Shown here piece by piece: positions 6,229-62,000 of a stretch of DNA of 64,000 nt. A program made the position numbers and the translations under genes. Source of the stretch: Salinivirgaceae bacterium (GTDB lineage: Bacteria; Bacteroidota; Bacteroidia; Bacteroidales; SZUA-534); contig JAGCNL010000034.1 in NCBI GenBank assembly GCA_017645945.1, positions 1,503 through 65,502 on the forward strand, read 5' to 3'. Positions within the stretch are counted from its first letter, which is position 1; every line of letters starts with the position of its first letter. The notes below the pieces were generated by a model. That model was not told the origin of the DNA. It worked only from the letters and a program-made list of their open reading frames with translations, and searched no databases.

Positions 6229-6282
6229 CTCAATTGTTTTTTAATCGTTCATAAACTGTTTCATTTTTTCTTGTCTTTCGAC

Positions 6283-6320
6283 ATGGCAAATATACGGCCA
6301 ATTTTAATTCTGCAAGCATT
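6283..6320 (-). promoter_or_regulatory. Bacteroidetes-type promoter (-33 TTG / -7 TATATTTG)
   Basis: Minus strand reads AATGCTTGCAGAATTAAAATTGGCCGTATATTTGCCATGT. The boxes and 18-nt spacing are identical to 1645-1680, and GTATATTTGCCAYGTCGAAA is conserved between the two. Confidence 0.4.
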
Positions 6321-8300: not shown

Positions 8301-8549
8301 CCTTATTCCAACACAAATTTTGGCTTTTTTTTCGAGGAAAACGGGAAGCTCGAACCAATTAAATCCGAAACCCAAAACTTCCTCAAAATCACCTTTGCTG
8401 CATTCCCAAAAAGAACGTATTTTCGCGGCAATTTTCGGGTACGGAAACAAAGAATTAATAATTTATATAAACAACAGAGTGTCAGTTGGTTATTTGTTTT
8501 TCAAAAAAATCTAAACTTCTAACCTCTGCCTCTCAACTTTCAGAAAGTT

Positions 8550-36004: not shown

Positions 36005-37153
36005 CTATATCAATGCGTCAACAATTCTACCACACGCCTTACCATCACCATAAGGATTCACGGCTTTGCTCATTTTATCATAATAAGCGGAATCATCCAA
36101 TAGTCGGCTAACCTCACTCACAATCAAGTCATGATTGGTGCCAACAAGTTTCACTGTTCCCGCATCAAGAGCTTCGGGCCGCTCGGTGGTATTACGCATA
36201 ACAAGCACCGGCTTGCCCAAACCAGGTGCTTCCTCTTGTATGCCGCCGCTGTCGGTAAGCACTACGGTGCTTTTCTCCATCAGATATACAAATTCAAGGT
36301 ACTGCAGCGGCTCAATGAAAAAGAAGTTATGGTATACGGTCAAATCATCGCCAAACACTTCGTGAATGGGTTTTCTGACATTGGGGTTTAAGTGCATCGG
36401 ATACACAAAATCAACATCAGGGTATTTTTCACTTAAATCTTTCATGGCGGTCACCATGCTAATGAACCCATCGCCGAAATTCTCTCTGCGGTGCCCTGTT
36501 ATCAATACTAGTTTTCGGCCATTGGCAAGTCGAGTTACATCGTAGCCTGCATTGGCAAGCACCTTCACCTGTTCGTCGGCAAGAGCCTTATCGCTTTTCA
36601 GTTTGTTCACCACCATGTGTAAGGCGTCGATAACCGTGTTGCCTGTCACATATACACTGCCTTGCGCTTTTTCCTCTTCAAGATTTCTTTTTGAAAGCGG
36701 TGTGGGTGCAAAGTTGTAAGTGGCTATGCGCCCTGTAATCTGTCGGTTCATCTCTTCGGGCCATGGACTGTAAATGTTCCGTGTCCGCAAACCCGCCTCA
36801 ACGTGCCCTACATGAATCTGCTGGTAAAAGGCCGCCAAGGCTGCGGCTGTGCTTGTTGTGGTATCACCATGCACAAGCACCACATCGGGTTGGACTTTTG
36901 AAAGCACATCGCGCATTCCTGTGAGCACTCGTGCTGTAACATCGTACAAGTCTTGGCCTTGCTTCATAATGTTCAAGTCGTAGTCGGGCACAACATCAAA
37001 AATGCGCAATACCTGGTCGAGCATTTCTCGGTGCTGACCTGTCACGCATACTATGGTTTCAAATTCTTTCGGATATTTTTGGAACTCTTTCACCAATGGG
37101 CACATCTTTATCGCCTCTGGCCGCGTTCCAAAAACTAGCATTATTTTTTTCAT
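36005..37153 (-). CDS. wecB: UDP-N-acetylglucosamine 2-epimerase (non-hydrolysing)
   Basis: MKKIMLVFGTRPEAIKM..., HVEAGLRT, DSGGIQEEAP. The start at 37153 is preferred over 37195, which would overlap the upstream gene. Confidence 0.9.
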   Translation of the reverse strand: MKKIMLVFGTRPEAIKMCPLVKEFQKYPKEFETIVCVTGQHREMLDQVLRIFDVVPDYDLNIMKQGQDLYDVTARVLTGMRDVLSKVQPDVVLVHGDTTTSTAAALAAFYQQIHVGHVEAGLRTRNIYSPWPEEMNRQITGRIATYNFAPTPLSKRNLEEEKAQGSVYVTGNTVIDALHMVVNKLKSDKALADEQVKVLANAGYDVTRLANGRKLVLITGHRRENFGDGFISMVTAMKDLSEKYPDVDFVYPMHLNPNVRKPIHEVFGDDLTVYHNFFFIEPLQYLEFVYLMEKSTVVLTDSGGIQEEAPGLGKPVLVMRNTTERPEALDAGTVKLVGTNHDLIVSEVSRLLDDSAYYDKMSKAVNPYGDGKACGRIVDALI

Positions 37154-37163
37154 ATTCAATTCG

Positions 37164-38348
37164 TTATATTCTAAACTCTTGGGGTTGCCTTCCATTCCAA
37201 ATAATAAGACATTGTGCTAGAGCCTTCATAAAGTCATTCATCTCTTCCATGTCATCACCTGAACATGCTTTATCTGAACCGCCCCAATTAGATTTTGCAT
37301 GAACAATGCGATTACGAGTTTCATAAATCACTTCTCCCAATTCATCTTTAATCTTGGCAATAATTGAATCGGCACAATTTCCTATTTCGTCAATTTTAAA
37401 AGAGCATTTACGACTAATGTTTATTTGTACCTCTTCTGGTAATAAATCGAAAATTGGAATAATATCCACACATTCTTGCAACACTGTCTTGCACAACTCC
37501 TTATCCTTCAAAGACGTTTGATAATGCTTTGCCAATTCAAGCAAAGAATCAAGATATTGACAATCCCTATTCACTATTGAAAGAGTATCCAGCCGTTGAT
37601 TTAACATTTCATAAGCCATCTTCTTGGATACTCTTGGCGAAAAGTGTTCTACGATTTTATATAAATGATGAAATTGAATATCAGGATCATTAATTCGTAG
37701 GGCATTAGCATAATACCTCATGGCTTCAGAATATGGTATAAGGGAATCTTTTTGCAATTGATACGGTTCAGACGGTTCCTCGCCCGTAATATCTTCCCAA
37801 GAATCAAACGTGCCGACCTCAATAGATATATCGTATTTGGCAGCAATCTGGTAAAGAAATCTCTCTATAATTTTATCTTCTTCATCTTTGGTGTATCGCT
37901 GTTCTGTTTTATAACGTAGTTCTAAAGCGGTATACATCGAACATGGGGAAACTCCAAATTCTTCGTTATAGATACCTTCTTTTGAAGCTACCAAACCAAT
38001 CAAGACAGGATTATAAATAATCTCCATGTCTATCAAGTCATCACTATATCTTACATTGGGCGCAAGATGGTCCAAATAGTAACAGTCAACGTTTAGTATT
38101 GTCTGACGGATATGGTTCATCCGAACAGTAGAGTCATCTTCTTTATTTAAACCATCCAAGTTGCTTGTGTAAAGCATAAAGTCGTCAACAGATATGGGTT
38201 CTTCTAAATTATCATCGGGATAATCAATGAAGATATACTCATCCCCTATCTTGATTTCATCTTCATCAAGGGGGTTGACGTTGAATTCATCATATAGCCT
38301 TTCTAATCGGCTCTTGATAGTTTTTATATTTCTAGTTGAGACTTTCAT
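37164..38348 (-). CDS. 394-aa protein: acidic N-terminal domain of unknown type plus C-terminal HEPN-like domain
   Basis: C-terminal Rx4H motif in IYETRNRIVHAK, preceded by helical segments (AMRYYANALRINDPDIQFHHLYKIVEHF), as in Apea/MAE_28990/Abi-type HEPN families. The N-terminal 200 aa are unrecognised. Confidence 0.5.
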   Translation of the reverse strand: MKVSTRNIKTIKSRLERLYDEFNVNPLDEDEIKIGDEYIFIDYPDDNLEEPISVDDFMLYTSNLDGLNKEDDSTVRMNHIRQTILNVDCYYLDHLAPNVRYSDDLIDMEIIYNPVLIGLVASKEGIYNEEFGVSPCSMYTALELRYKTEQRYTKDEEDKIIERFLYQIAAKYDISIEVGTFDSWEDITGEEPSEPYQLQKDSLIPYSEAMRYYANALRINDPDIQFHHLYKIVEHFSPRVSKKMAYEMLNQRLDTLSIVNRDCQYLDSLLELAKHYQTSLKDKELCKTVLQECVDIIPIFDLLPEEVQINISRKCSFKIDEIGNCADSIIAKIKDELGEVIYETRNRIVHAKSNWGGSDKACSGDDMEEMNDFMKALAQCLIIWNGRQPQEFRI

Positions 38349-38391
38349 ACTTTTTATCTCTTTTGCATTATCAAATTGTTATTTTCAACTA

Positions 38392-39159
38392 TCATTCTTC
38401 AACAATTCCATATTCATCAAATGGCACAATATCGTTTTCCCAAAATTCTATTGGCGACAAGCCGATTGAATGAGTTTTATAGTATAGTGTGAGAGCTATT
38501 GGGCTAGGGGTAATATTGGCATCTAAATTCGCGTCAGTGCACATAAAACCTCCACTGCCAGAAATTGCATCTCCAACTACAAGCAACACAATTGAGCGCA
38601 TATGATCCAACTCGCTATCTAGCCTATAAATATCATCTGTTTCTGCTATTGTAACCAATTCATCAAAAGATATTATCAATGTCTGTGCGGAAAGCAGGTT
38701 ATTTTTGTATTGTATTTTCTTACAATTACGGCAGGCGTAATCTAAGATTCTTGCTTCAACACTACTCATGCGTTTCAGCAAATCCACAAAATTCATGTTG
38801 CTATCATCGCGACCATCTGTCGTGCATGAAGAAGCGAACAGTCCCGCCCATAAGTTTTGTAGTTCGTCATCTTCTATTTGAGAACACTCATCTATTATGG
38901 TGAGCCCAACACGAGCATTTGCTGTAAGTTGAAGAGTCTGCCCATCGAAACACATACGGCCTTTCGCCTTTTCCAGTGTGCGAATAATATTATTCAGGCG
39001 CCATTGTCGAACCTTGTCCTGGATAAGGTATCCTAATTCCTGTAGACAAGGTTTACATACTATCTCCAAAAATGAAGATACTCCTTCTATCGTTGCTTTT
39101 GTAACCTCAAGTCCTGTCTCGGCGACTGGCTTTAAACCTAAAACATCCTTTATCTCCAT
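38392..39159 (-). CDS. Abi-alpha (DUF4393) family protein
   Basis: The N-terminal block CLQELGYLIQDKVRQWRLNNIIRTLEKAK and the later LQNLWAGLFASS match my recollection of the Abi_alpha signature. Confidence 0.65.
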   Translation of the reverse strand: MEIKDVLGLKPVAETGLEVTKATIEGVSSFLEIVCKPCLQELGYLIQDKVRQWRLNNIIRTLEKAKGRMCFDGQTLQLTANARVGLTIIDECSQIEDDELQNLWAGLFASSCTTDGRDDSNMNFVDLLKRMSSVEARILDYACRNCKKIQYKNNLLSAQTLIISFDELVTIAETDDIYRLDSELDHMRSIVLLVVGDAISGSGGFMCTDANLDANITPSPIALTLYYKTHSIGLSPIEFWENDIVPFDEYGIVEE

Positions 39160-39236
39160 ATTTTATGTTCTAATCAGTTTCAAACGGCGAACCGTATTCA
39201 CTTGGTGTTGTATTGGTTTATTCATGTTTATCCAAT

Positions 39237-39608
39237 TTACATTTTTATTCCTTCTAATCTCACCAAAGCATCCTTTTTCCTTGTTTCTATATTGGAATAA
39301 CACATTTGTTTTACAAACATCTTCCAAATCTCACTTTCATGAATATGTTCAAGTCCGAAATCTGTCAAATCTTTATACAGTTTTTCAATCTTGTCCAAAG
39401 TGCTACGGCTAAAGATTCCATCAGACAATTCCTTTTCAATTGACTTGGAATCGTTGCCTTTTAGCATCAATTTAACTTTGTCAAATTCTCGTCTATCGTA
39501 ATCTGTGGCTTGCGGCAACATTATCAATTCGGTAGCCAAAGTGAGCATATAATTGATAAAGTTTACGAAACTATCGTGCAAGTTTGATATGTATTGCTGT
39601 TGAGTCAT
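39237..39608 (-). CDS. 123-aa all-helical hypothetical protein
   Basis: The first ATG is at 39608 (the track start 39653 is TTG). No motif recognised. It is the first gene of the 3-gene module. Confidence 0.4.
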   Translation of the reverse strand: MTQQQYISNLHDSFVNFINYMLTLATELIMLPQATDYDRREFDKVKLMLKGNDSKSIEKELSDGIFSRSTLDKIEKLYKDLTDFGLEHIHESEIWKMFVKQMCYSNIETRKKDALVRLEGIKM

Positions 39609-39682
39609 ATATAAGTTTTTGTGTTCGCTTATTCTGCAATTAAACTGGCACAAATCTCATCAGTTTATTTATGCCGTGCAAA

Positions 39683-39713
39683 GAAAAAGCTCTGCCAATT
39701 TTGTGCAGTAAAT
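39683..39713. repeat. 31-bp direct repeat, copy 1 (flanks the SatD/DUF3307 cassette)
   Basis: GAAAAAGCTCTGCCAATTTTGTGCAGTAAAT matches 41297-41327 at 30 of 31 positions. Confidence 0.9.
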
Positions 39714-39749
39714 AAAAACTAACTGTGCGTCGTATCGATTATACTGGCG

Positions 39750-40448
39750 CTATGCTATCATACAAACCAACAATCCAACCAGAACTGCAATTGCAATACT
39801 GAGCAATGTTCCCACCAGAAAATATTCGGTTTCACTCTTATTGCCAAATCGGATAATTGATTTAGCCGCTATCAGGAAACCTATAACCTCATACTTGCCT
39901 AAAATTATAAAAGCCAATATTAGCCATCGTTCTAATGTCCCTATCAGTTTTCCTGCATGAAAGGCATCCATTTTCTCATCAGGCAATTTCACATTGTTAT
40001 AAACCAAAATGTTTTTGACAAATATGTTTGCTGGTTTCCAACACAAAATAGCGGCAAGCGCTATGGCTTCCACTTTCAAAACTGACACTGTGAACCAACG
40101 GGGACTCGTCCAATCAAAGAATTTCACACTTGCGTATGTTACAATAATTAAAATGGCAATATGTAAAATTTGGTCTATGGCAAACGTCCAAATGTTGTCT
40201 TCCTTTGTAAGTGCCGCCTTCGCCAAATCTATCAACAAATGGCTTGCTCCTATTATCAGGGCAAAACACCAAAACTTAATATTCCAAAACGCAATAAGCG
40301 ATGTGCCAGCTACAATAAGCGCATGGACATACATAAACCAACTGGCGCATTTCTTCTCTTTCTTCTGGACACATAGAGTTTCCGTTTGCAATACAAAATC
40401 GGCAATAAAATGAACCAACAGCAGACTCACGAGCAAATTAATCAACAT
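39750..40448 (-). CDS. DUF3307-family polytopic membrane protein
   Basis: The N-terminus LLLVHFIADFVLQT is the DUF3307 hallmark. Further intramembrane His/Asp pairs (SHLLIDLAK, IDQILHIAIL). It overlaps satD by 11 nt. Confidence 0.7.
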   Translation of the reverse strand: MLINLLVSLLLVHFIADFVLQTETLCVQKKEKKCASWFMYVHALIVAGTSLIAFWNIKFWCFALIIGASHLLIDLAKAALTKEDNIWTFAIDQILHIAILIIVTYASVKFFDWTSPRWFTVSVLKVEAIALAAILCWKPANIFVKNILVYNNVKLPDEKMDAFHAGKLIGTLERWLILAFIILGKYEVIGFLIAAKSIIRFGNKSETEYFLVGTLLSIAIAVLVGLLVCMIA

Positions 40449-41112
40449 AATCTTCGAATTTTATTTTTTCTAAAACACCTATCGCATTTCTTATAAGTTG
40501 CCATCCTGCACTTTTTGCCCTCAAGTTAACCGCCGCCTGGCTTGCCGACAACTCTTTGGCTATTTCAACTTCTCTCCATCCCAACAATTTATAGTATATC
40601 ACAAGGCATTGACGTTCTGTGAAACTGTCAATCATATTGTCAATCAATCTCAAATTGGTGGTTATAAGCGATTCTATATCTGCGTTCTCAGAACTAATTC
40701 CAAACATTGACGAATATCCGTTGGTATAAATGTAGTCCAAATTTCGACCCGCTATATATATGGCTTCCCCGTCCAGGAAATCTTCTCTCTTGTTAACAAT
40801 TCGCATGGTTCCTATTCCTATTGAATATCGGATTCCGCATTCCTTCATAAAATGTGATGCGTCATGGCCAAACGCCCATTTTTTGAACCAACACTTCATC
40901 AATATTGCTATTCTGAAAGCATACCACGGTTCGTCTATGCAACTTTCAATTGTATCACCCCTTACAACCCTTCCCCAAAAATCGGAACTTATCAAGGCAA
41001 GGTCCGAAAACAAATCTGCATATATTGCCCTACGCAATTGCAATAATTCATTTTCCTGCAATGATGTGGAATCCACCACATCACATGATACTATAGCATA
41101 TAACCTTCTCAT
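40438..41112 (-). CDS. SatD-family protein (cyclase-like N-domain plus C-terminal sigma-70 region-4-like HTH)
   Basis: The N-terminus YAIVSCDVVDSTSL...RGDTIES resembles the SatD/nucleotide-cyclase fold. The C-terminus ERQCLVIYYKLLGWREVEIAKELSASQAAVNLRAKSA is HTH-like. Paired with DUF3307, as is usual for SatD. Confidence 0.7.
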   Translation of the reverse strand: MRRLYAIVSCDVVDSTSLQENELLQLRRAIYADLFSDLALISSDFWGRVVRGDTIESCIDEPWYAFRIAILMKCWFKKWAFGHDASHFMKECGIRYSIGIGTMRIVNKREDFLDGEAIYIAGRNLDYIYTNGYSSMFGISSENADIESLITTNLRLIDNMIDSFTERQCLVIYYKLLGWREVEIAKELSASQAAVNLRAKSAGWQLIRNAIGVLEKIKFEDYVD

Positions 41113-41131
41113 TACACAAATATATTAGGTT

Positions 41132-41200
41132 TTTCCCTAATAAACAATATTTATTAAGTTTTTCCCTAATATTTTATGATTATTAGACATTTCCCTAATA
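41132..41200. promoter_or_regulatory. three 11-bp iterons (TTTCCCTAATA) at exact 29-bp spacing upstream of satD
   Basis: Copies at 41132-41142, 41161-41171 and 41190-41200. The intervening sequence is not conserved. The array starts 20 bp upstream of the satD ATG. Confidence 0.55.
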
Positions 41201-41296
41201 ACCATCACCTGCTTATGTCAACTTCTGCATAATCTCAATTTACAATTTCAGCAAGAAAACCAACACAAGTTTTCATTTGTCAATATACGATTCCGC

Positions 41297-41327
41297 GAAA
41301 AAGCACTGCCAATTTTGTGCAGTAAAT
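41297..41327. repeat. 31-bp direct repeat, copy 2
   Basis: GAAAAAGCACTGCCAATTTTGTGCAGTAAAT, located 1614 bp from copy 1. Confidence 0.9.
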
Positions 41328-41380
41328 TTTGTTTGAAGTTGTGTGAGTTACGAGCAATCTTAAACTGTATTCTAAACGAA

Positions 41381-41683
41381 CTATTCCTCGTGCATATTCT
41401 GTGCATGACAAGCGTCAACTATGGTAACCGTGCTACCGTCGAAAGTATAGGCGAAATACCATTTGTCGGTGTTGGCCATGTAATAGCCGTTCCAACGGGT
41501 TATGGTTGGATTTCGGCGTAAAAGAGTTTGTTCAATTTGGTAAATGGAAAAGACTGCATCATGGACATTTCGTTTCAAATCGGCTTTATCATAAGTGTGG
41601 CGGTACTTCTTTGCCACATTCTGATAAAAAGAGAATTTTTTTTGTGCTGCGCGTGGCTTGATAATATAATTCAAATTAGCCAT
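41381..41683 (-). CDS. RelE/ParE-superfamily toxin-like protein
   Basis: About 100 aa. The C-terminus WYFAYTFDGSTVTIVDACHAQNM resembles the ParE terminal strand-helix. The ATG at 41683 overlaps the upstream stop by 8 nt (the track start is TTG). Confidence 0.45.
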   Translation of the reverse strand: MANLNYIIKPRAAQKKFSFYQNVAKKYRHTYDKADLKRNVHDAVFSIYQIEQTLLRRNPTITRWNGYYMANTDKWYFAYTFDGSTVTIVDACHAQNMHEE

Positions 41684-41891
41684 TGGCGTATATTGAATCA
41701 ATCTCCTCCGAAATCACACCATATAAACCATCTACCGTTATGTCACGTTGCAGCGCAGACATGCGGCTTTCGGATTTCACATGAGCATCCAACACATCTT
41801 GAGCCCAACGGCGTATGGCTTCCTTACTATCAAGGTCAGGGCGGGCAGCCTTGATTGCATTCTCATCTATTTCTAAAGTTAATGTACACAT
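41676..41891 (-). CDS. 71-aa putative antitoxin
   Basis: A small acidic protein directly upstream of and overlapping the toxin-like ORF. No family recognised. Confidence 0.35.
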   Translation of the reverse strand: MCTLTLEIDENAIKAARPDLDSKEAIRRWAQDVLDAHVKSESRMSALQRDITVDGLYGVISEEIDSIYANG

Positions 41892-41954
41892 GGTCTTATA
41901 TGTTTTTTACAAATGTAACCGAATTTAATAAATGTATAAGTTTGCATTAAATCC

Positions 41955-42953
41955 TTATAACAGGCTTGCGACACGTATAGAGAAAGCCTCATTAAAAGGA
42001 ATTTTCTCGTGATTGTTACAATACTCTTTCCATGCCTTCTCTTCATGACTTATGCGAGATAACTCACGAGACGATTTTTTACCAAGTAATGAACAAACCT
42101 TATCCATTACTTGAAGTTCAAAATCGGTAAACAGAGAAACATCGGCGTTTTGAGTTGCAATCAGAACGCTCCCTTCAAAATCGCCTGCCTGGCGGAACTC
42201 TTGATGTACTTCAGGAAACTCGCTGTACACCTTCTCCCATCGTTCCGGCACCGGCCCAAAATCTACAGCCCGATACGAAAGTCCCGTAATAGCCATTCCA
42301 CTGTCGCGATACGAGAGAAAATCGACATAAAACAACAGCTTGTTCATTTTGGTGCACCACACATCATCACATCTCTCTAATATGTACAGCATAACGTTCT
42401 TCAACCTATCCAACGATAGTTGTGCATAGCCATTCTCCTTGTTTCGCAATGTTGAGAAAATTCGTTTGATTTCGTATTGTTCCAATTTATAAGAGTCGCT
42501 GTCGGCAATAATGGATTTCACCTTGCTGCTGATTTTTTCGTAATCAGACTGCGACATCTCATTCTTCGAACTTTCAACCATCTCCAACATCACCTTGGGG
42601 TTGCTTATTGAGCGTATCATTCTACCGTTCGAGACACTGGGCACTTCGCCTTGTTCATATTTACGGTACTGATTAACACCTATGCCTAGTATCAACGACA
42701 TTTTTGCCGCACTGACATCATATTTGTTCCTTATCGATATTATTTCATCGGTATATGGAATGCCGTATTTATCTCTATATTGGTTGGTTACCTGTACAAA
42801 CCCCGCAGTATCGCTCAAATCATCGGTAAAACTCTCACCAGAATCACTGCAGAACCAAGATGAATGTTCATACTCATACTGTTCGCCACGAAAATTCCAG
42901 ATGCGTTTCTCGTATACGCGTTGCATTTCTTTACCTGTAAACGGGCTTTTCAT
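41955..42953 (-). CDS. MqsA-like (degenerate Zn ribbon plus XRE HTH) antitoxin fused to a Panacea/DUF4065 (SocA-like) domain
   Basis: The N-terminus aligns by eye with E. coli MqsA (FRG..., GIGVNQYRKYEQGEVPSVSNGRMIRSI versus GGGVNAFSRYEKGNAQPHPSTIKLLRVL), but the Cys ligands are lost. The C-terminal KLLFYVDFLSYRDSGMAITGLSYRAVDFGPVP is the DUF4065 signature. Confidence 0.65.
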   Translation of the reverse strand: MKSPFTGKEMQRVYEKRIWNFRGEQYEYEHSSWFCSDSGESFTDDLSDTAGFVQVTNQYRDKYGIPYTDEIISIRNKYDVSAAKMSLILGIGVNQYRKYEQGEVPSVSNGRMIRSISNPKVMLEMVESSKNEMSQSDYEKISSKVKSIIADSDSYKLEQYEIKRIFSTLRNKENGYAQLSLDRLKNVMLYILERCDDVWCTKMNKLLFYVDFLSYRDSGMAITGLSYRAVDFGPVPERWEKVYSEFPEVHQEFRQAGDFEGSVLIATQNADVSLFTDFELQVMDKVCSLLGKKSSRELSRISHEEKAWKEYCNNHEKIPFNEAFSIRVASLL

Positions 42954-42955
42954 AA

Positions 42956-43312
42956 CTACTCCTCCATTTTAAACGGATACAACAAAGGCTGTTCGGCTAT
43001 ATGAAAAGAGATACAAATTGTTTGACAACCAACTCCGCCTAACATAATCTTGATATATATTTCACGGCCTTTTACATCTTTTCCGAAAACCCACATTTCA
43101 CCAAGTTTGTTCAACTCGTCCACTACCGGGCCTTGCACGTAATCCTCAACCATAAGGTTTTCGATAACAACTCTTCTGTACGAAGGAACAATCTCCAATT
43201 CTTCAAGTGTTTTCTGGTTTTTCCCTCTATCATCGCGATAGATTATGCCAAAAACCTTCAACTTTTGATGAAACTGCACCAAGAATTTTTGTACTTCGTC
43301 TTTTGTTACCAT
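42956..43312 (-). CDS. MqsR-like toxin
   Basis: 118 aa, with the toxin-first gene order of mqsRA. The C-terminus EIYIKIMLGG...ICISFHIAE resembles MqsR QVYLKITVIHDVLIVSFKEK. Confidence 0.5.
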   Translation of the reverse strand: MVTKDEVQKFLVQFHQKLKVFGIIYRDDRGKNQKTLEELEIVPSYRRVVIENLMVEDYVQGPVVDELNKLGEMWVFGKDVKGREIYIKIMLGGVGCQTICISFHIAEQPLLYPFKMEE

Positions 43313-43373
43313 AATTCACTTTTGAGTTGCAAAAGTATTTGATTTAACGCAAAAATACAACTTTAAGGTTGAT

Positions 43374-43392
43374 TATAATTTGGCAAATTATA
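43374..43392. promoter_or_regulatory. 19-bp palindrome upstream of the mqsR-like gene (candidate operator)
   Basis: TATAATTTG-G-CAAATTATA, 62-80 bp upstream of the ATG at 43312. Confidence 0.35.
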
Positions 43393-43437
43393 AATGTTTG
43401 AATGTGGAATGTGAAATTGTGTGGTATTCGAAGACGG

Positions 43438-43788
43438 TCAATTTTCTTTAATGCCATTCAACAATTCTTGTATCTGAAATGTGAGCGAAGGAATGATATT
43501 CTTTGCAACATCCCAAACTATATGATAATTAACACCCATGTAATCATGCACCAATCTGTCGCGCATACCCGCCATCTGTTTCCATTCTATACTTCTCCAT
43601 TCATATTTAACATCGGCGAGTATTTTCTTTGTTGCCTCACCAATTATTGAAAGGCTTCTTGTCACAGCACGTTTCAATGTCTCATCAGCAAGGAATTGGT
43701 CAATGACCATTTCTTTGGTTATTACCGAGTTAATGTAATTGCACTCATCAAGAATGTGCTGAAGATATGGGATAAACGATTTACACAT
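43438..43788 (-). CDS. hepT: HepT-like HEPN (DUF86) toxin
   Basis: 116 aa with Rx4H in MRDRLVHDY. It overlaps the upstream nucleotidyltransferase gene by 8 nt. Confidence 0.8.
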   Translation of the reverse strand: MCKSFIPYLQHILDECNYINSVITKEMVIDQFLADETLKRAVTRSLSIIGEATKKILADVKYEWRSIEWKQMAGMRDRLVHDYMGVNYHIVWDVAKNIIPSLTFQIQELLNGIKEN

Positions 43789-44074
43789 ATTCCACTTCGT
43801 TTAATATGATTTTACCAATATAAGGGCTCATTCCGTTACGGGTAACAACATCGAGTTTGTGCCGTTTGAAATTTTGTTCAAGAATTTGACACGCATCAAT
43901 AAAATTCACATACGTTTCCTGCCCTTCTTTAAAATCGAGCAAAATATCGATGTCACTATGGGCGGTATTATCACCACGGACAGTTGACCCAAAAAGCCCC
44001 AATTGTGACACGCCAACATTGCTCAACTGCTCTTTTAGGCTATTCAGCCTATGCAATACAGAACTTTTCTTCAT
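43781..44074 (-). CDS. mntA: MntA-like minimal nucleotidyltransferase antitoxin
   Basis: 97 aa with the NTase motif LFGSTVRGDNTAHSDIDILLDF. Confidence 0.85.
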   Translation of the reverse strand: MKKSSVLHRLNSLKEQLSNVGVSQLGLFGSTVRGDNTAHSDIDILLDFKEGQETYVNFIDACQILEQNFKRHKLDVVTRNGMSPYIGKIILNEVEYV

Positions 44075-44118
44075 AGCTAATGTAACTCAAAATATTATTA
44101 CAGAAAACCTCTCCACAA

Positions 44119-44137: not shown

Positions 44138-44273
44138 GTCGCTTTCTCCCACAGCTTCGCCACTGTCGGGTGCGGGTTTCGCACGACAATGACTTATCAA
44201 ACAAATGTAGAAAAAAAGCAGAATGGATTTAAAAGATTTATTGTTTTGCCGAAGGCCGTGCAACCTTACACTT

Positions 44274-44321
44274 ACAACTCAAAACTTTGAACTTAAAACT
44301 TATAACTCAAAACTTAACTCA
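44274..44321. repeat. 14-bp tandem repeat (about 3.4 copies) at the wecA stop / island boundary
   Basis: ACAACTCAAAACTT TGAACTTAAAACTT ATAACTCAAAACTT AACTCA, read directly. Confidence 0.8.
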
Positions 44322-46885: not shown

Positions 46886-47239
46886 CTATTTATCTGTTTT
46901 ATCAATCAATTTTGCAATCATTCTCCTTATTTCAATCACTTCTTTTGCTAATTCATCGTATTCTGTTTCTGTAAGATAGTCTAATTCATGAGCCAGTTGT
47001 AATTCATAATCGACTTCACTCGCAGAACCAACAGAAATCTGCAAAAAACGACAAAAATCAGCATCACTTTTTCTGCCGCAACCTTCTGCTATGTTTGTCG
47101 GAATCGACATAGCCGCGCGCCTAATTTGCGATGTAAGCCCGTATATTTCTTCTTTGGGGAATTTGCGAGTTATTTGATACACATTTATCACAAAGGTATG
47201 GCTACGAGACCAAACTGTCAGATTTCTAAAATCTCTCAT
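46886..47239 (-). CDS. four-helix-bundle protein (23S rRNA intervening-sequence protein family)
   Basis: Hallmarks [26 protein letters not shown] and [10 protein letters not shown]. The ATG at 47239 lies 2 nt after the upstream stop (the track start is TTG). Confidence 0.85.
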
Positions 47240-47241
47240 AA

Positions 47242-48267
47242 TCAAACATTTTTATTATGATTAACAGACTCACATCCGCTCATGGCTGACTGCTCATTGC
47301 TCAAAGCTGAAAAATACCATTTACAAGCCTCCCTCAACCCCTCTTTAAAGAAATATTTCGGTGCGTAACCCAACAGATTTTTCGCTTTTTCGATTGATGC
47401 AAGCGAGTGCGGAATGTCGCCAGCACGATTTGGGCCGTGAACTGGTTCAATTTTTGCAATCTCAGCATCGTATTCTGACAAGTTTTCTTTCAGATAATCA
47501 AACAGTTGATTCAATGTTGTGCGCTCGCCGCAAGCCGTATTGTAAATCTGATTGACGGCTTGTTGATTGTCGGTCAGCATTGCCAAAAGGTTCATTTCCA
47601 CCACGTTGTCGATGTATGTAAAATCGCGGCTGTAATCGCCTGTGCCGTTGATAGTCGGTTGCTCGTGAGCGATTAACTTCTTAACAAACAACGGAATGAC
47701 TGCTGCATATGCTCCATTTGGGTCCTGTCGGCGGCCAAAAACGTTGAAATAACGCAGACCGATATATTCAATGCCGTATGTCCGTGCAAAAACATCGGCA
47801 TACAACTCGTTGACATACTTTGTAATAGCGTACGGCGACAAAGGGCGCCCAATCACATCCTCAACCTTTGGCAGAGTGGTCGAATCGCCGTAAGTGGATG
47901 AACTGGCGGCGAAAATGAAACGTTTCACTTTGGCGTCACGGGCTGCAATGAGCATATTCAAGAATCCGCCGATATTCACCGCATTGGTTGTGGCAGGGTC
48001 TTTAATCGAGCGGGGCACTGAACCCAAAGCGGCTTCGTGCAACACGTAGTCGGCACCGTTGACGGCCGTCTGGCAATCACTCAAATTGCGGATATCGCCC
48101 ACAATAAGGCTGAAACGGTCAGGGTATTTTTCGAGCAACGGATTGATATTTTCGATGTGACCAGTCGAAAAATTGTCAAGGCAGACCACCTCGTCGCCGC
48201 GCTCAAGAAGCGCCTCGCACAAATTCGAGCCTATAAATCCCGCTCCGCCTGTTACTAAAACCTTCAT
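47242..48267 (-). CDS. UDP-HexNAc(A) 4-epimerase (TviC/WbpP-like SDR)
   Basis: MKVLVTGGAGFIGSNL, catalytic YAITKY, and pairing with a TviB-like dehydrogenase. The ATG is at 48267. Confidence 0.8.
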   Translation of the reverse strand: MKVLVTGGAGFIGSNLCEALLERGDEVVCLDNFSTGHIENINPLLEKYPDRFSLIVGDIRNLSDCQTAVNGADYVLHEAALGSVPRSIKDPATTNAVNIGGFLNMLIAARDAKVKRFIFAASSSTYGDSTTLPKVEDVIGRPLSPYAITKYVNELYADVFARTYGIEYIGLRYFNVFGRRQDPNGAYAAVIPLFVKKLIAHEQPTINGTGDYSRDFTYIDNVVEMNLLAMLTDNQQAVNQIYNTACGERTTLNQLFDYLKENLSEYDAEIAKIEPVHGPNRAGDIPHSLASIEKAKNLLGYAPKYFFKEGLREACKWYFSALSNEQSAMSGCESVNHNKNV

Positions 48268-52848: not shown

Positions 52849-53289
52849 CTAATACAACCATTCAGGAATTTCTCCTTTATATTGATAGTTTTTGATTTTT
52901 TCAAACCCTATTCCAAGAACAAGTTCCTCAACATTAAAATTAATCAAATAACCTAACGGTTTATTGGCCAAATGAAGGTAATTGTTCAGTTGTTTATAAT
53001 GAATGCTTTCAAATGCGGCAATCGATTTAAGTTCAAGAATTAAAATGTTTTCCACTAAAATATCCATACGAAATCCCAAACCTAAATCCTCACCACAATA
53101 AGCAACATTTATGGGGACCTCGCTTTCGGCCGCTATTCCTTGATTTTTTAATTCAATTAATAAAGCCTTTTTATATACCGATTCTAAAAGTCCTGACCCT
53201 AATTTTGAATGAACTTTCATAGCGCAACCAATAACTTTATACGCTAAAGTATCTTTCTTGCACTTTGTATATTCCTCCAATAAATCCAT
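52849..53289 (-). CDS. GxxExxY protein (PD-(D/E)xK-like small protein family)
   Basis: GLLESVY motif and FRMDILVENILILELKS, 146 aa. Confidence 0.85.
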   Translation of the reverse strand: MDLLEEYTKCKKDTLAYKVIGCAMKVHSKLGSGLLESVYKKALLIELKNQGIAAESEVPINVAYCGEDLGLGFRMDILVENILILELKSIAAFESIHYKQLNNYLHLANKPLGYLINFNVEELVLGIGFEKIKNYQYKGEIPEWLY

Positions 53290-59023: not shown

Positions 59024-62000
59024 TTAATAAACCATTACACGTTTGGCTGTGTTATTAACCTTCACAATGTAAAAGCCCTGGTTCTGCATTATTATCTCGG
59101 TGCGCGAACCTGCTGCCTGTTCCTTGGCAACCATGCGGCCGTTGACATCGAAGATGCTGATTTCGCCCTCAAGAGCGTCGGCTGACTCAACCACAATCAC
59201 ATTTTGGTATGCATAGATGTTCACGGCTGCAGCCTCGTCGTCGCTGATGGCGGTGTTGTCGTTGGCCTCAACAGTAACATCGAAGGTTGCGGTGAGCACC
59301 ACCTTGTCGATCTTGAGCGTTATGGTAAGTTGCTGTGCGCCAACCTTGTCGGCATCGAAACCGCTGACCATATCGGCCTTAAGCTCAATTTCGGCAGTGG
59401 TGTTGTCGCTGTAGGTGACGGTGATTTTGCCGCCAGTCACATCCAGAGCCTCGCCCTGCTTGTATTCAACCTTGGCAGGTTTTGCGCTCACTGCAATCGA
59501 CTTGGCCACAATCTCGATGACCTCAGCCTCTTTCACCTCAACATCGAATGTTGTTGTGTAAGGCACGCCGTCAATCTCGAACGAAACCGTAACAGTCTGA
59601 ACGCCAACGCTGTCTGGTTTGAATCCGCTGATCATTTCAGGAGTGATGACAACCTCAGCCGTTGTGCTGTCGCTGGTGGCGAAGATGAGTTTGCCGCCCT
59701 CAAGATTCAGGCTGTCGCCGACGGTATAGTTGATTTGGCTGATAACAACCTCAGCGTCAATTGGTTTGGCAATGTCTTTCACCTCAACATCGAATGTTGT
59801 TGTGTAAGCCACGCCGTCGATTTCGAATGAAACCATAACGGTCTGAACGCCAATGCTGTCGGGGTTGAAACCGCTGACCATTTCAGGAGTGATGACAACC
59901 TCAGCCGTTGTGCTGTCGCTGGTGGCGATGACGATTTTGCCGCCATCGAGTTTCAGGCTGTCGCCGACGGTGTAACTGATTTGGCTGACAACAACCTCAG
60001 CGTCAATCTTCGGAGCAACAAGTTGCGGAACCACAACCTTGGTGCGGCTCAACTCAACCTTGCAAACCGAGCAGTAAACCACTGAATCGTAAGAGCCTGC
60101 GGCCTTGTATGTTGCAGCCACAACATTCTCAATGACAATGCTGTCGGCCTTATGACCTTTGGCAGGAATAACCTCTTGTGCCTTTATAATTGTATTGCAA
60201 ACCGGGCAGTGAGAGCCTTCTGTCAAGCCTGATTCTGTGCAAGTTGCTGCAACGGCTACGTCAACTACCTCAGTGTGAGCAATAACAGGTAACTCAACTG
60301 TCTTGCGGCTGATTTCTGCTTTGCAAACAGTGCAATAAACTACTGAATCAACTGAGCCTGCAGCGGTGCAAGTTGCGGCCTTCAAGTTCTCGGCAACGGC
60401 AGCACCTGCAGTGTGGGATGCAACAGGAATCTCAACAGTCTTGCGGCTCAATTCTGCCTTGCAGACTGTGCAATAAACAACTGAGTCAACTGAGCCAGCA
60501 GCGGTGCAGGTTGCGGCTTTCAGGTTCTCGGCAACGGCTGCGCCTGCAGCGTGACCTGCGGCAGTAGTAGTTGTTTGTGCAACAAGCACTTCGTGGCAAA
60601 CATCGCAATGCGAGCCTTCAGTAAGGCCAGTGGCGGTGCAGGTGGCGGCAACTGCGGGATCAACCACAATATGGTGGCCAGCAGGAATGACAACCTTGAT
60701 GCGACTCAACTCAATCTGGCAAACTGAGCAGTAAACCACTGAGTCGCGTGAACCAGCGGTGGTGCAGGTTGCAGCCACAACATTCTCGAACACTACGCTG
60801 TCGGCCTTGTGACCTGTGGCGGCAACAGTGTCAGAATACTCAATGTGCTGGCAGCGCGAGCAAAGGTGCTCGGTGTAGCCATCGGCGGTGCAAGTCGGGG
60901 CAACCACGGTCTCAACAAAGTCGTGACCGAGAGCAGGAATGCTGTCGCCCATCTCGTAAATCTGGCCGCAGAGTTTGCAACTTGTGTTGCCTGTGTAGCC
61001 CTTGTGGGTGCAGGTAGGCTCGAGAGTGTAGAGGGTGGTGTTGCCCTCGTTGTGCAGGCACTCAAGGCGTGTGATTGTAATATCAACGCTCTCAACCTCG
61101 TAGTTGCCCTTGTCGGCACCAGTGTAGTTGGCAGTGGCGGTGTTGTCGCCCTCTTCGAGAGCCTGTTGCTCATCGGCCCATTTCCAATCATCGGGCAGTT
61201 CAACCAATTGAGTAACAATGAAGCGTGTCTCAATATTTGCCTCAGGCTTGTTGGGTGCCTCGGCAGCCCTGTTGATGGTGAGAGCACCATCGACAATATT
61301 GAATGTAACCTCGGCAAAGTTCTTATTGGTGTTGCTGAAATCGTCAGCCGACAGTTGCATCGGGTAAACGCCAGCGTTGATACCGCTTGCTGTGGCAGTG
61401 CCGCTGAACGCGAAATCGTCTTCGGTGTAAACGCCTGTGGCATCGCTGATGGCTACAGAGTAACCGCTAACGCTCTGCTCCTCACCATTATAAGTGAGTG
61501 TGCTGCTGTTCTCGGTTACGGTGACAACAACCTCAGTGTTAGGAGTGATGATGAGTTTGCCATCGGTAACATCGAAGCGGACATTGGTGAAGTTCGTGCT
61601 GGTGTTGCTGAACATTTCAGCATTCCAGCCGAAAGCGTACTCTGCAGCATTGGTGCCGCTCACGCTTGCAGCGTTGCCCGATGCCGAAACCCAACTGATA
61701 TTGTAAAGCGCGTTGTTGGCCTCGATGGTGAGTGCATCTTCAGAGTTGTAAGTCTGCGCCGCGCCGCTGAATACCACGCTCTTGTCGGCAAGTGTTATGG
61801 TCACAACCACCTCATCTTCAATAGGTTTGATGGTGAACTGGCTGCTGACAACATTCTCAGCATCGTTGTTGTTGGTGAGGCTGATGGTTGCCTGGCCAGC
61901 GTTGATGTTGTTGGCGTACGACACTGTGTAAGCATCGCCATAGGTGAACACTTTTCCGCAGATGGTGCGGCTGACAGTGAACTCAATGTCATCGTAGGCC

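What the first reader, a model, noticed from the sequence alone, without database searches (positions are those of the whole stretch)
39683..41327. SatD (cyclase-like plus HTH)/DUF3307 membrane pair as a discrete cassette bracketed by 31-bp direct repeats
**Gene pair**
- The overlapping gene pair has no established function in any organism.
- SatD starts with a segment resembling the metal-binding strands of nucleotide-cyclase/GGDEF-fold enzymes (SCDVVDSTSL ... RGDTIES). It ends in a sigma-70 region-4-like HTH.
- DUF3307 is a 6-TM protein with His/Asp pairs placed inside helices (HFIADF, SHLLID, DQILH), suggestive of an intramembrane metal site.

**Flanking repeats**
- The pair and its upstream control region are flanked by GAAAAAGC(T/A)CTGCCAATTTTGTGCAGTAAAT at 39683-39713 and 41297-41327 (30 of 31 identical, same orientation, 1614 bp apart).
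- This is the signature of cassette insertion or duplication by recombination.

**Interpretation**
- Its placement between TA modules and an Abi/HEPN module raises the hypothesis of a signalling-type conflict system: a nucleotide-generating sensor/regulator plus a membrane effector.
Basis: partly seen in the sequence, partly recalled or inferred. Interest (0 to 1): 0.72.

Follow-up and report, generated by a model that had tools for sequence, protein, structure and literature searches.

The report
Mobile cyclase-fold regulator plus membrane-protein cassette
A self-regulated gene pair of unknown function (a cyclase-like DNA-binding protein plus a membrane protein) is a real insertable and removable cassette, sitting in a slot of a rumen bacterium's capsule locus where related genomes carry anti-phage genes.

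Summary
Two 31-bp direct repeats (30/31 identical, 1,614 bp apart; none expected by chance) bracket a minus-strand SatD-like/DUF3307 pair.

- **Cassette.** Five independent related contigs have the exact empty site with one repeat copy. Another contig carries the same cassette (97% identity) between different flanking genes.
- **Repeat.** It is a pre-existing junction sequence, not a footprint made by insertion. It was found only in close relatives and is absent around nine other loci with this pair. No recombinase was found.
- **SatD-like protein.** The N-domain has a class III nucleotide-cyclase fold. The two metal-binding Asp and key Arg residues are the best-conserved positions across 129 diverse relatives. 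The C-terminus is a sigma-70 region-4/LuxR-type HTH.
- **Operators.** Phased 20-bp palindromes overlap the promoter. Their sequence changes between loci while their layout is kept, which indicates autoregulation.
- **DUF3307.** About seven helices, no known fold, no nucleotide-binding domain.
- **Context.** Nine of ten Bacteroidales loci lie inside polysaccharide gene clusters, and seven or eight have defence-like neighbours. A Salinivibrio copy sits among housekeeping genes.

A signalling conflict system is plausible but unproven. An envelope-related sensor module is a serious rival.

The parts
41297..41327 (.). 31-bp direct repeat, upstream copy (cassette boundary). On the transcribed minus strand it reads ATTTACTGCACAAAATTGGCAGTGCTTTTTC, a short hairpin followed by a T-run.
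   Evidence: The single copy at empty sites corresponds to this position. The hairpin is only -8.1 kcal/mol, z = -1.4.
41239..41296 (-). 58-nt segment that follows the upstream repeat (the 'B-tail'). It is also found with the repeat in front of an unrelated 97-aa gene in L008.
   Evidence: blastn: L008 1858-1945 matches window 41327-41239 at 92%. Also conserved in L006 and L044.
41123..41200 (-). Three operator-like 20-bp palindromes (TATTAG-N8-CTAATA) at 41181-41200, 41152-41171 and 41123-41142, spaced 29 bp centre to centre. The last one overlaps the promoter.
   Evidence: (family D1), 30, 74 and 89: 4 matches in the window against 0.08 expected, all inside the cassette. The same 6-N8-6 layout with 29-bp phasing, but with different arm sequences, occurs in 9 of the 10 other loci examined.
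41117..41124 (-). TATATTTG, which matches the Bacteroidetes -7 promoter consensus TAnnTTTG. It lies 4 nt before the ATG, so the mRNA is probably leaderless or nearly so.
   Evidence: Read from the sequence. The consensus is from my own knowledge of Bacteroides promoters. A similar box precedes the start codon in the homologous loci. This is an inference.
40438..41112 (-). SatD-like protein, 224 aa. Residues 1 to about 140 form a class III cyclase-homology domain (D11, G52-D53, R95, G115, R123). Residues about 144-214 form a sigma-70 region-4/LuxR-type HTH.
   Evidence: (pLDDT 95).
39750..40448 (-). DUF3307 membrane protein, 232 aa, about 7 helices. The start overlaps the SatD-like stop by 11 nt. 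Conserved polar residues in the clade: H13 and D17 (at least 90%), and H42, H70, D74, K77, D92, Q93 and H96 (invariant).
   Evidence: (82 bits). No structural match in PDB. The N-terminal half resembles short phage DUF3307 proteins.
39918..39937 (.). Fourth operator-like site (TATTAGCCATCGTTCTAATG, 1 mismatch), inside the 3' part of the DUF3307 gene.
   Evidence: Significance unknown.
39683..39713 (.). 31-bp direct repeat, downstream copy (cassette boundary), 37 nt after the DUF3307 stop codon.
39631..39682 (-). 52-nt segment that follows the downstream repeat (the 'A-tail'). It is promoter-like and is conserved in front of at least 5 different downstream genes in 11 related contigs.
   Evidence: nhmmer E 1e-16 to 1e-19. 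Not significantly similar to the B-tail.

Best explanation
**What it is.** A 1.6-kb, self-contained, autoregulated two-gene module. It is one of several interchangeable passenger modules in a variable island inside a polysaccharide-biosynthesis locus of an uncultured rumen Bacteroidales bacterium.

**How it moves.** It is gained or lost by recombination between two copies of a 31-bp junction sequence (a weak hairpin plus a T-run). Relatives that lack the cassette already have one copy of this sequence. Short-homology recombination is the likeliest mechanism. A dedicated recombinase is neither seen nor excluded.

**How it probably works.**
1. The SatD-like protein dimerises through its class III cyclase-homology domain.
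2. Its sigma-70 region-4/LuxR-type HTH binds three phased palindromic operators that overlap its own promoter, keeping the operon repressed.
3. The cyclase-like pocket has both metal-binding Asp and two Arg under strong conservation. It binds, and probably turns over, a nucleotide. This event is the signal that changes DNA binding and/or talks to the partner.
4. The translationally coupled 7-helix DUF3307 protein, with conserved His/Asp/Lys residues in its predicted helices, is the membrane output.

**Most likely role.** A conflict-type module (phage defence, abortive infection or addiction) rather than polysaccharide synthesis.

**Shown versus inferred.**
- Shown: the presence/absence polymorphism and its boundaries, the fold, the residue conservation, the operator layout, and the conserved pairing of the two genes.
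- Inferred: dimer binding, nucleotide turnover, the membrane effector role, and the defence function.
For: **Cassette**
- Exact empty sites with one repeat copy occur in L002, L016, L021, L017 and L019.
- The cassette runs repeat-to-repeat in L006.
- It is 97.2% identical in L044, where both flanks are different.

**Fold and active site**
- The AlphaFold model has pLDDT 95.
- All top Foldseek hits in PDB are class III cyclases (Ma1120, bPAC, CyaC, 3mr7) and the Pycsar cUMP synthase 7r65, with E from 6e-5 and probability 1.0.
- A profile search hits 3mr7 and aligns D11, D53 and the G..A..GR motif.
- Among 129 representatives, each standing for a separate 50%-identity cluster, D11 is conserved in 97%, G52-D53 in 99%, R95 in 96%, G115 in 99% and R123 in 85%.

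**HTH.** 35 of 41 clade members hit Sigma70_r4_2 and 29 hit GerE.

**Operators**
- Perfect 6-N8-6 palindromes with 29-bp phasing occur in most loci, against 0.05-0.2 expected per locus.
- The arms differ between loci (TAG, CGA, CTA, AGA, CAA).
- All 4 sites in the 64-kb window lie inside the cassette.

**Pairing.** The DUF3307 gene follows, and nearly always overlaps, the SatD-like gene in every locus. This includes Segatella and the gammaproteobacterium Salinivibrio.

**Conflict context**
- In the window the neighbours are HepT/MNT, Panacea, Abi_alpha and HEPN.
- The same slot in sister genomes holds SIR2_2, DUF4209, DUF4062, Schlafen/AlbA_2 and a 1023-aa Metallophos protein.
- Seven to eight of ten loci have AIPR, RloB/AAA_21, KAP NTPase, RelA_SpoT+PIN, TIR_2, AbiH or PRTase-CE within 8 kb.
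Against: - There is no experimental or literature support for any function.
- Neither protein matches PADLOC, NCBIfam or defence-candidate models.
- DUF3307 has no nucleotide-binding domain and no structural relative, so a product-to-effector link is pure inference.
- The cyclase transition-state Asn is replaced by an invariant Tyr, and the substrate-specifying residues cannot be identified.
- Nine of ten loci lie inside polysaccharide clusters in the same orientation as the biosynthetic genes. Two of them have no defence-like neighbour (L028, L035). In L039 the DUF3307 stop overlaps the next biosynthetic gene.
- The Salinivibrio copy sits among housekeeping genes.
- No relatives were found in viral contigs.
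- The neighbourhood sample is small, and the loci were chosen for contig length, not at random.
Confidence: 0.42

Rival explanations
1. Envelope- or polysaccharide-linked sensory module, not a conflict system. SatD senses a nucleotide or nucleotide-sugar pool through its cyclase-like domain and controls an internal promoter. DUF3307 is an intramembrane metal-dependent enzyme or transporter that acts on the envelope or on lipid-linked intermediates.
For: - Nine of ten Bacteroidales loci lie inside polysaccharide gene clusters, in the same orientation as the biosynthetic genes. They often sit between nucleotide-sugar genes such as Epimerase_2, UDP-glucose dehydrogenase and NTP_transferase.
- L028 and L035 have no defence-like neighbours.
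- In L039 the DUF3307 stop overlaps the start of the UDP-glucose dehydrogenase gene.
- The pair occurs in a housekeeping context in Salinivibrio.
- DUF3307 has enzyme-like invariant His/Asp/Lys/Gln residues.
- From memory: the founding satD lies in the S. mutans 'secretion and acid tolerance' operon.
Against: - Presence or absence of the cassette leaves the flanking genes unchanged. In L044 it sits between unrelated genes. Polysaccharide synthesis therefore does not depend on it.
- Operator sites were found only inside the cassette in the 64-kb window.
- The neighbouring polysaccharide genes differ from locus to locus.
- L029 is a pure defence island with no polysaccharide genes.
Confidence: 0.3
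2. Toxin-antitoxin-like addiction module. DUF3307 is a membrane toxin and SatD is its HTH antitoxin and autorepressor. The cyclase-like domain serves only as a dimerisation or partner-binding scaffold and has no enzymatic activity.
For: - The layout is a two-gene overlapping operon with the HTH gene first.
- Multiple palindromic operators overlap the promoter.
- The module sits among TA pairs and shows presence/absence polymorphism.
Against: - The best-conserved positions across 129 diverse family members are exactly the cyclase metal- and phosphate-binding positions. A mere scaffold would not be expected to keep these.
- DUF3307 is a 232-aa polytopic protein with many invariant polar residues, unlike typical small membrane toxins.
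- No match to any known TA family.
Confidence: 0.13
3. This rival concerns only how the cassette moves, so it can be true together with any of the functional explanations. The 31-bp repeats are sites of a dedicated site-specific recombination system (integron attC-like or Xer/dif-module-like). The cassette is excised as a 1,614-bp circle and inserted from it.
For: - The boundaries at the 31-mer are sharp and identical in the window, L006 and L044, and at all empty sites.
- The repeat contains a short imperfect palindrome.
- The Logan contig L006 (1,642 bp) begins and ends in the repeat.
Against: - No recombinase was found in the cassette, among its neighbours, or among the 30 window ORFs scanned against Pfam.
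- The inverted arms are only 5 bp long (8 with a bulge). There is no GTTRRRY attC core and no 11-6-11 dif layout.
- The cassette carries its own promoter.
- The mosaic breakpoints are not confined to the 31-mer. In L008 a breakpoint lies after the B-tail, and others lie at the end of the A-tail.
- The ends of L006 are what a k=31 assembly graph gives for any repeat of about 30 bp.
- No flanking repeats exist around 9 other SatD-DUF3307 loci.
Confidence: 0.1
4. The repeats are a chance or generic intergenic motif, and the pair is ordinary resident chromosomal DNA rather than a cassette.
For: The 31-mer is a pre-existing junction sequence in relatives that lack the pair, and other SatD-DUF3307 loci lack it.
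Against: - Zero matches are expected by chance.
- Of the 20 exact 19-mer hits in the genome and metagenome collections, 11 lie in contigs related to this locus. The other 9, and the single hit in viral contigs, show no further similarity.
- Five empty sites, and a second flanking context, have breakpoints exactly at the repeat.
Confidence: 0.03

Closest known systems
Pfam SatD family (PF16264) with the adjacent DUF3307 (PF11750) gene
   Same: - Same two-domain layout (cyclase-like N-domain, HTH C-domain) and the same conserved motifs: D-x-x-x-S-T, G-D, SIGIG and G..A..(S/A)GR.
- The same downstream DUF3307 partner, in Bacteroidota and in a gammaproteobacterium.
- The DUF3307 gene passes the Pfam threshold (82 bits).
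   Different: - The window protein scores only 16.8 bits against the SatD cutoff of 29, so this is a divergent Bacteroidales branch.
- The DUF3307 protein carries an extra conserved C-terminal half (residues 113-232) that the Pfam model does not cover.
- Neither family has a known function.
Class III nucleotidyl cyclases (for example Ma1120, CyaC, bPAC), including cyclase+HTH proteins of the mycobacterial Rv0386 type
   Same: - Same palm-type fold. Both metal-binding Asp and the Arg of the GDxVNxAxR motif are in equivalent positions.
- A cyclase fused to a LuxR-type HTH is a known combination (from memory).
   Different: - No Pfam Guanylate_cyc hit.
- The transition-state Asn is replaced by an invariant Tyr119.
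- The substrate-specifying residues cannot be recognised.
- There is no ATPase or TPR module, although a few relatives add TPR repeats.
- Activity is untested.
Pycsar (pyrimidine cyclase anti-phage system)
   Same: Both are two-gene units with a class III cyclase-fold protein and a membrane protein in a defence-type neighbourhood. The Pycsar cUMP synthase 7r65 is among the structural matches (rank 14).
   Different: - No match to PADLOC Pycsar models.
- The partner lacks the cNMP-binding domain that defines Pycsar effectors.
- Here the cyclase is fused to an autoregulatory HTH, which Pycsar cyclases lack.
Type II toxin-antitoxin and abortive-infection two-gene modules
   Same: An overlapping two-gene operon with an HTH-containing first gene, palindromic operators over the promoter, presence/absence polymorphism, and residence among TA and Abi genes.
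   Different: Neither protein belongs to a known toxin or antitoxin family. The second gene encodes a large polytopic protein with enzyme-like conserved residues. The first protein has a conserved nucleotide-site signature.
Integron gene cassettes, Acinetobacter pdif modules and the JUMPStart element of enterobacterial polysaccharide clusters (analogies for the 31-bp junction)
   Same: A short conserved non-coding sequence marks the borders of exchangeable gene modules. Like JUMPStart, it lies in front of the variable genes of polysaccharide clusters (L001, L008).
   Different: - No integrase was found.
- By direct reading of the 31-mer there is no attC core, no 11-6-11 Xer layout and no ops motif.
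- The cassette has its own promoter.
- The element was found only in close relatives of this organism.

Membership tests
Pfam SatD (PF16264) | HMM score at or above the gathering threshold (29 bits) | tested here: not met
   16.8 bits, E 0.0055, residues 88-205. 19 of 41 clade members match at E<=1, best 1.2e-6. Some have precomputed PF16264 hits. This is a divergent relative.
Pfam SatD (PF16264) | Cyclase-like N-domain plus C-terminal HTH, with DUF3307 encoded next to it | tested here: met
   DUF3307 lies downstream in every locus examined.
Pfam DUF3307 (PF11750) | HMM score above the gathering threshold (23 bits) | tested here: met
   82.1 bits, residues 5-111. 35 of 35 clade members match.
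Class III nucleotidyl cyclase | Cyclase-homology (palm) fold | tested here: met
   Foldseek against PDB: all 50 matches listed are class III cyclases, counting the Pycsar cUMP synthase 7r65 among them. E from 6.3e-5, probability 1.00 (0.99 for one match), target TM-score about 0.5. Model pLDDT 95.
Class III nucleotidyl cyclase | Two metal-binding aspartates (strand beta1 and the GD motif) | tested here: met
   D11 and D53 align to the cyclase Asp residues of 3mr7. They are conserved in 97% and 99% of 129 diverse relatives.
Class III nucleotidyl cyclase | Transition-state Asn and Arg in the GDxVNxAxR motif | tested here: inconclusive
   The Arg is present (R123: 85% R plus 5% K). The Asn position holds an invariant Tyr119 in the clade.
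Class III nucleotidyl cyclase | Substrate-specifying Lys/Asp (ATP) or Glu/Cys (GTP) pair | tested here: inconclusive
   No equivalent residues could be assigned from the alignments. R48 and R51 lie near the expected Lys position.
Class III nucleotidyl cyclase | Cyclase activity on an NTP | not testable with these tools
   Needs purified protein and LC-MS.
Pycsar | Cyclase matches PycC models | tested here: not met
   No PADLOC hit at E<=0.01.
Pycsar | Effector carries a cyclic-nucleotide-binding domain fused to a TM or TIR module | tested here: not met
   DUF3307 matches only PF11750, with no cNMP_binding hit in 35 members at E<=1. The model is all-helical and largely hydrophobic.
Integron gene cassette | attC site with GTTRRRY core and paired R/L boxes, a nearby intI gene, and a promoterless cassette | tested here: not met
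   The 31-mer has no GTTRRRY. No recombinase among the 30 window ORFs scanned. The cassette has its own promoter and operators.
Type II toxin-antitoxin | Overlapping two-gene operon autoregulated by a DNA-binding antitoxin | tested here: inconclusive
   The layout fits (11-nt overlap; operators). However, no toxin or antitoxin family match was found and toxicity is untested.
Intrinsic terminator (as the role of the 31-mer) | Stable GC-rich hairpin followed by a U-run | tested here: inconclusive
   A T5 run follows a stem of 5-6 bp with a bulge. Energies are -5.2 and -8.1 kcal/mol, no better than shuffles (z -0.5 and -1.4). The terminator scan did not call it.

The most novel reading that the evidence does not exclude
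The SatD-like/DUF3307 pair is a previously unrecognised and widespread class of nucleotide-signalling conflict system (about 1,800 clusters at 50% identity). In it the cyclase is fused to its own transcriptional repressor. A trigger such as phage infection switches on nucleotide synthesis, de-represses the operon, and activates a metal-dependent intramembrane DUF3307 effector that has a new fold. In Bacteroidales it travels as a cassette between defence slots embedded in capsule loci.
Probability: 0.2. Interest if true: 0.8.

Novelty: new variant of a known kind. Interest (0 to 1): 0.55.

Why it matters
**If the conflict reading is right**
- This would add a cyclase-based signalling system in which the enzyme and the repressor are one polypeptide.
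- It would give a first function to two widespread families of unknown function: SatD-like (1,831 cluster representatives at E<=1e-3) and DUF3307.

**Independent of function**
- The locus is a clean natural example of module exchange inside Bacteroidales capsule loci, with filled and empty alleles and a second flanking context.
- The slot is otherwise occupied by SIR2, Schlafen, TIR-like, Abi and HEPN genes. Capsule loci of rumen and gut Bacteroidales may therefore be reservoirs of defence genes.
- The co-varying operator sets give a ready-made system for studying the DNA-binding specificity of a cyclase-HTH regulator.

Tried and rejected
- **Target-site duplication or a property of the pair.** Rejected. 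Relatives without the cassette already carry one copy of the 31-mer, and nine other pair loci have no flanking repeat of 12 bp or more.
- **Two copies of one longer 83-nt element.** I first thought so, because a mixed nhmmer model matched both copies. A model built from A-type tails alone does not detect the B-type tail. Only the 31-bp head is demonstrably shared.
- **L006 as a circular form.** Rejected as evidence. A k=31 assembly breaks at any repeat of about 30 bp.
- **Integron attC, Xer/dif or ops-like site.** No matching motifs and no recombinase.
- **Known RNA family.** No relevant Rfam match (one chance miRNA hit, E=0.7) in 36-46 kb.
- **Strong intrinsic terminator.** Not supported.
- **SatD-DUF3307 fusion proteins as a sign of physical interaction.** The long relatives are SatD+TPR or have no Pfam match in the extension; none is a DUF3307 fusion.
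- **Phage carriage.** No relatives in viral contigs, and no DUF3307 match in phage genomes. Only short DUF3307-only proteins in BFVD and PHROGs.
- **DUF3307 fold assignment.** Nothing in PDB by structure or by sequence.
- **Literature.** No paper on SatD or DUF3307 function in the searchable library.
Full report
**1. The observation**

- The two 31-mers are at 39683-39713 and 41297-41327, in the same orientation, 30/31 identical and 1,614 bp apart. A search allowing 3 mismatches finds only these two copies in the 64-kb window, against 0.00 expected in 100 shuffles.
- Both genes lie on the minus strand. The SatD-like ORF runs 41112..40438 (224 aa) and the DUF3307 ORF 40448..39750 (232 aa), with an 11-nt overlap.
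- DUF3307 passes its Pfam threshold (82 bits). The SatD match does not (16.8 bits against 29).
- On the transcribed strand the order is:
  1. stop codon of a 100-aa gene
  2. 31-mer
  3. a 58-nt segment
  4. three palindromes
  5. SatD-like gene
  6. DUF3307 gene
  7. 37 nt of spacer
  8. 31-mer
  9. a promoter-like 52 nt
  10. a 123-aa gene

**2. It is a real cassette**

I searched the public genome and metagenome collections for an exact 19-mer from the repeat core. This gave 5 and 15 loci. The hits unrelated to this locus are about what chance predicts and show no further similarity. Eleven loci come from rumen-type Bacteroidales, two of them labelled Salinivirgaceae MAGs, and these extend the match.

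- **Empty sites.** Five independent contigs (L002, L016, L021, L017, L019) have the left flank of copy 1 joined to the right flank of copy 2 through a single 31-mer. In L002, for example, positions 6199-6339 match window 39573-39713 and positions 6309-8000 match window 41297-42990.
- **Filled sites.** The Logan contig L006 is the cassette from repeat to repeat (99.3% identity). The ENA contig L044 carries the cassette at 97.2% identity over 1,696 bp, again between two 31-mers. Its upstream flank is the one seen in L008, and its downstream gene resembles the one in L017.
- **Conclusion.** The module exists in at least two flanking contexts and is absent from at least five otherwise collinear alleles.

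**3. What the repeat is**

- It is not a footprint of insertion. Genomes without the pair already have one copy. That copy sits between variable genes: five different upstream flanks and at least five different downstream genes.
- Each copy is followed by a longer conserved segment. The 'A-tail' (window 39631-39682) occurs in 11 contigs. The 'B-tail' (41239-41296) occurs in the window, L006, L044 and L008. In L008 it precedes an unrelated 97-aa gene.
- I first read A and B as diverged copies of one 83-nt element. A model built from A-tails alone does not find the B-tail. Only the 31-mer is demonstrably shared.
- On the transcribed strand the 31-mer forms a weak hairpin (-5 to -8 kcal/mol, no better than shuffles) followed by TTTTT. 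The terminator scan does not call it, and no relevant Rfam family matches.
- Nine other SatD-DUF3307 loci have no flanking direct repeat of 12 bp or more.
- No recombinase was found among the 30 window ORFs scanned.
- The simplest reading is gain or loss by recombination between 31-bp direct repeats, within a mosaic island that has several breakpoints. A site-specific mechanism is not excluded. L006 is not evidence for a circular form, because a k=31 assembly graph breaks at such repeats.

**4. The SatD-like protein**

- An AlphaFold model built with 41 homologues is very confident (pLDDT 95, pTM 0.92).
- All 50 Foldseek matches listed from PDB are class III nucleotide cyclases. They include Ma1120, bPAC, CyaC and 3mr7, and the Pycsar cUMP synthase 7r65 at rank 14. 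E-values start at 6e-5 and probability is 1.00 (0.99 for one match).
- A profile search of PDB sequences gives 3mr7 as the top hit (E 0.036). It aligns D11 and D53 with the two metal-binding Asp, and GEAIYIAGR with GDAVNVAAR.
- A profile search of 1.84 billion cluster representatives finds 1,831 relatives at E<=1e-3 and 826 at E<=1e-10.
- I aligned 129 of these, each standing for a separate 50%-identity cluster. The best-conserved columns are D11 (97%), G52-D53 (99%), R95 (96%), G115 (99%), G122 (97%) and R123 (85%). These are the cyclase active-site positions.
- The transition-state Asn is an invariant Tyr in this clade.
- The C-terminal domain hits Sigma70_r4_2 in 35 of 41 members and GerE in 29 of 41.
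- Taken together, this is a nucleotide-binding, probably catalytic, cyclase-homology domain fused to a DNA-binding domain. No GGDEF structure is among the 50 matches listed.

**5. Autoregulation**

- Three 20-bp palindromes (TATTAG-N8-CTAATA) lie at 41181-41200, 41152-41171 and 41123-41142, spaced 29 bp apart. The last one overlaps a TATATTTG box 4 nt before the ATG. This box matches the Bacteroidetes -7 consensus as I know it.
- The motif occurs 4 times in the window against 0.08 expected. All four sites are inside the cassette.
- In 10 of 11 loci examined (counting the window and the near-identical cassette in L044), the upstream region holds 6-N8-6 palindromes of the form TATNNN-N8-NNNATA. 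Mostly there are two or three, 29 bp apart, against 0.05-0.2 expected per locus.
- The inner arm bases differ from locus to locus (TAG, CGA, CTA, AGA, CAA). This pattern, a conserved layout with a changing sequence, is what co-evolving repressor-operator pairs show.
- Class III cyclase domains act as dimers, which fits palindromic sites.

**6. The DUF3307 protein**

- It has about seven hydrophobic helices.
- In the clade, H42, H70, D74, K77, D92, Q93 and H96 are invariant and H13 and D17 nearly so. The C-terminal half is also strongly conserved but is not covered by the Pfam model.
- There is no match in PDB, either by fold (best E 1.8) or by sequence.
- The N-terminal half resembles 115-131-aa DUF3307-only proteins of phages.
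- It has no nucleotide-binding domain.
- Whether the His/Asp residues form one site could not be checked.

**7. Context**

- *Pairing.* The SatD-like and DUF3307 genes are adjacent, in the same order and usually overlapping, in every locus. This includes a Segatella copri plasmid and a Salinivibrio replicon whose proteins are about 26% identical to the window's.
- *Window island.* The pair lies in a low-GC island (about 37164-44100) between a GT4 (WecA-like) gene and a UDP-GlcNAc 2-epimerase gene, inside a long polysaccharide locus. Its companions are HepT/MNT, a Panacea pair, Abi_alpha and a HEPN/MauJ-like gene.
- *Polysaccharide loci.* Of ten independent Bacteroidales loci, nine lie inside polysaccharide clusters in the same orientation as the biosynthetic genes.
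- *Defence-like neighbours.* Seven or eight of the ten have such genes within 8 kb: AIPR, RloB/AAA_21, KAP NTPase, RelA_SpoT+PIN, TIR_2, AbiH and PRTase-CE.
- *Exceptions.* L028 and L035 have none, and L029 is a defence island without polysaccharide genes.
- *Sister genomes.* The slots beside the 31-mer hold SIR2_2, DUF4209, DUF4062, Schlafen/AlbA_2 and a 1023-aa phosphoesterase.
- *Housekeeping copy.* The Salinivibrio copy sits among housekeeping genes.
- *Databases.* Neither protein matches PADLOC or NCBIfam. No relatives were found in viral contigs.
- *Caveat.* The sample is small and was chosen for contig length, so it is not a controlled enrichment test.

**8. Interpretation**

- *Shown:*
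  - the cassette polymorphism and its boundaries
  - the cyclase fold and conserved active-site signature
  - the HTH domain
  - the operator layout
  - the obligate pairing with DUF3307
- *Inferred:*
  - autorepression by a dimer
  - nucleotide binding or turnover as the signal
  - DUF3307 as the membrane output
- *Role.* I favour a conflict-type module (0.42). The reasons are mobility, self-containment, sharing of its slot with defence genes, and a regulon confined to itself.
- *Main rival.* An envelope- or polysaccharide-linked sensor module (0.30) is supported by the striking polysaccharide-locus association and by the housekeeping context in Salinivibrio.
- *Other functional rival.* A TA-like scaffold model (0.13) fits the operon layout but not the conserved active site.
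- *Mechanism of movement.* This is a separate question. Short-homology recombination is more likely than a dedicated recombinase (about 0.1).

**9. Novelty**

- The two protein families are catalogued but have no known function, and I found no paper addressing them.
- New here:
  - the demonstration that the pair is a cassette
  - the junction sequence
  - the co-varying operator architecture
  - the family-wide conservation of the active site
  - the capsule-locus association
- I rate it a new variant of known kinds (cyclase-fold one-component regulator; defence-island passenger). It is a good candidate for experimental work, not yet a new system.

Noticed in passing
window 44262-44315: Tandem repeat with a 14-bp period (units like AACTCAAAACTT, about 4 copies) between the GT4/WecA-like gene and the MNT gene (family D2). 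Function unknown.
   Followed up: no
window 46886-47245 and 52849-53289: Other small passenger-type genes are embedded in the polysaccharide locus: a 23S_rRNA_IVP/bAvd-like four-helix-bundle protein and a PDDEXK_3 nuclease-fold protein.
   Followed up: partly
window 41381-41891: An overlapping 71-aa/100-aa gene pair with no hit for either protein in Pfam, NCBIfam, PHROGs or PADLOC. It is about 95% conserved in L002, L016 and L021. It looks like an uncharacterised TA-type pair.
   Followed up: partly
window 37164-37195: The 3' end of the HEPN/MauJ-like gene (37164-38348) overlaps the start of the UDP-GlcNAc 2-epimerase ORF (36005-37195) by 32 nt. The passenger gene therefore appears to be spliced into the biosynthetic operon.
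   Followed up: no
L002 2761-5911; L013 346-1698; L008 6-1430; L017 2869-5940: In sister genomes the slots on either side of the 31-bp junction hold SIR2_2 and DUF4209 proteins, a DUF4062 protein, a Schlafen AlbA_2/HATPase_c_4 protein and a 1023-aa Metallophos protein. The junction marks a hotspot of defence-type gene turnover inside a capsule locus.
   Followed up: partly
proteins P0259, P0260 (metagenomic relatives): Some SatD-like proteins carry a C-terminal TPR extension (503-550 aa). Three other long relatives (472-626 aa) have extensions with no Pfam match. None is a DUF3307 fusion.
   Followed up: partly
L045 (Segatella copri plasmid NZ_CP137558) 7938-9351; L046 (Salinivibrio proteolyticus NZ_CP114585) 7971-9376: Distant SatD-like/DUF3307 pairs (about 26% identity). 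One lies next to an IS1182 transposase on a 93-kb plasmid. The other lies among housekeeping genes on a 760-kb replicon. The pairing is conserved across phyla.
   Followed up: partly
window 39918-39937: A fourth operator-like palindrome (1 mismatch) lies inside the DUF3307 coding region. It may be a chance match or an internal regulatory site.
   Followed up: no
L028 7324-7536, L037 6442-6855, L041 1766-2194: A DUF6016 gene recurs near the SatD-DUF3307 pair in three independent polysaccharide loci. NTP_transf_5 genes also recur, in L032, L037, L039 and L041.
   Followed up: no
window 59024-63730 and 1956-3107: A 1,568-aa GLUG/Big_3 protein with a type IX secretion sorting domain, and an AAA_14/DUF4143 ATPase, lie elsewhere in the window.
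   Followed up: no
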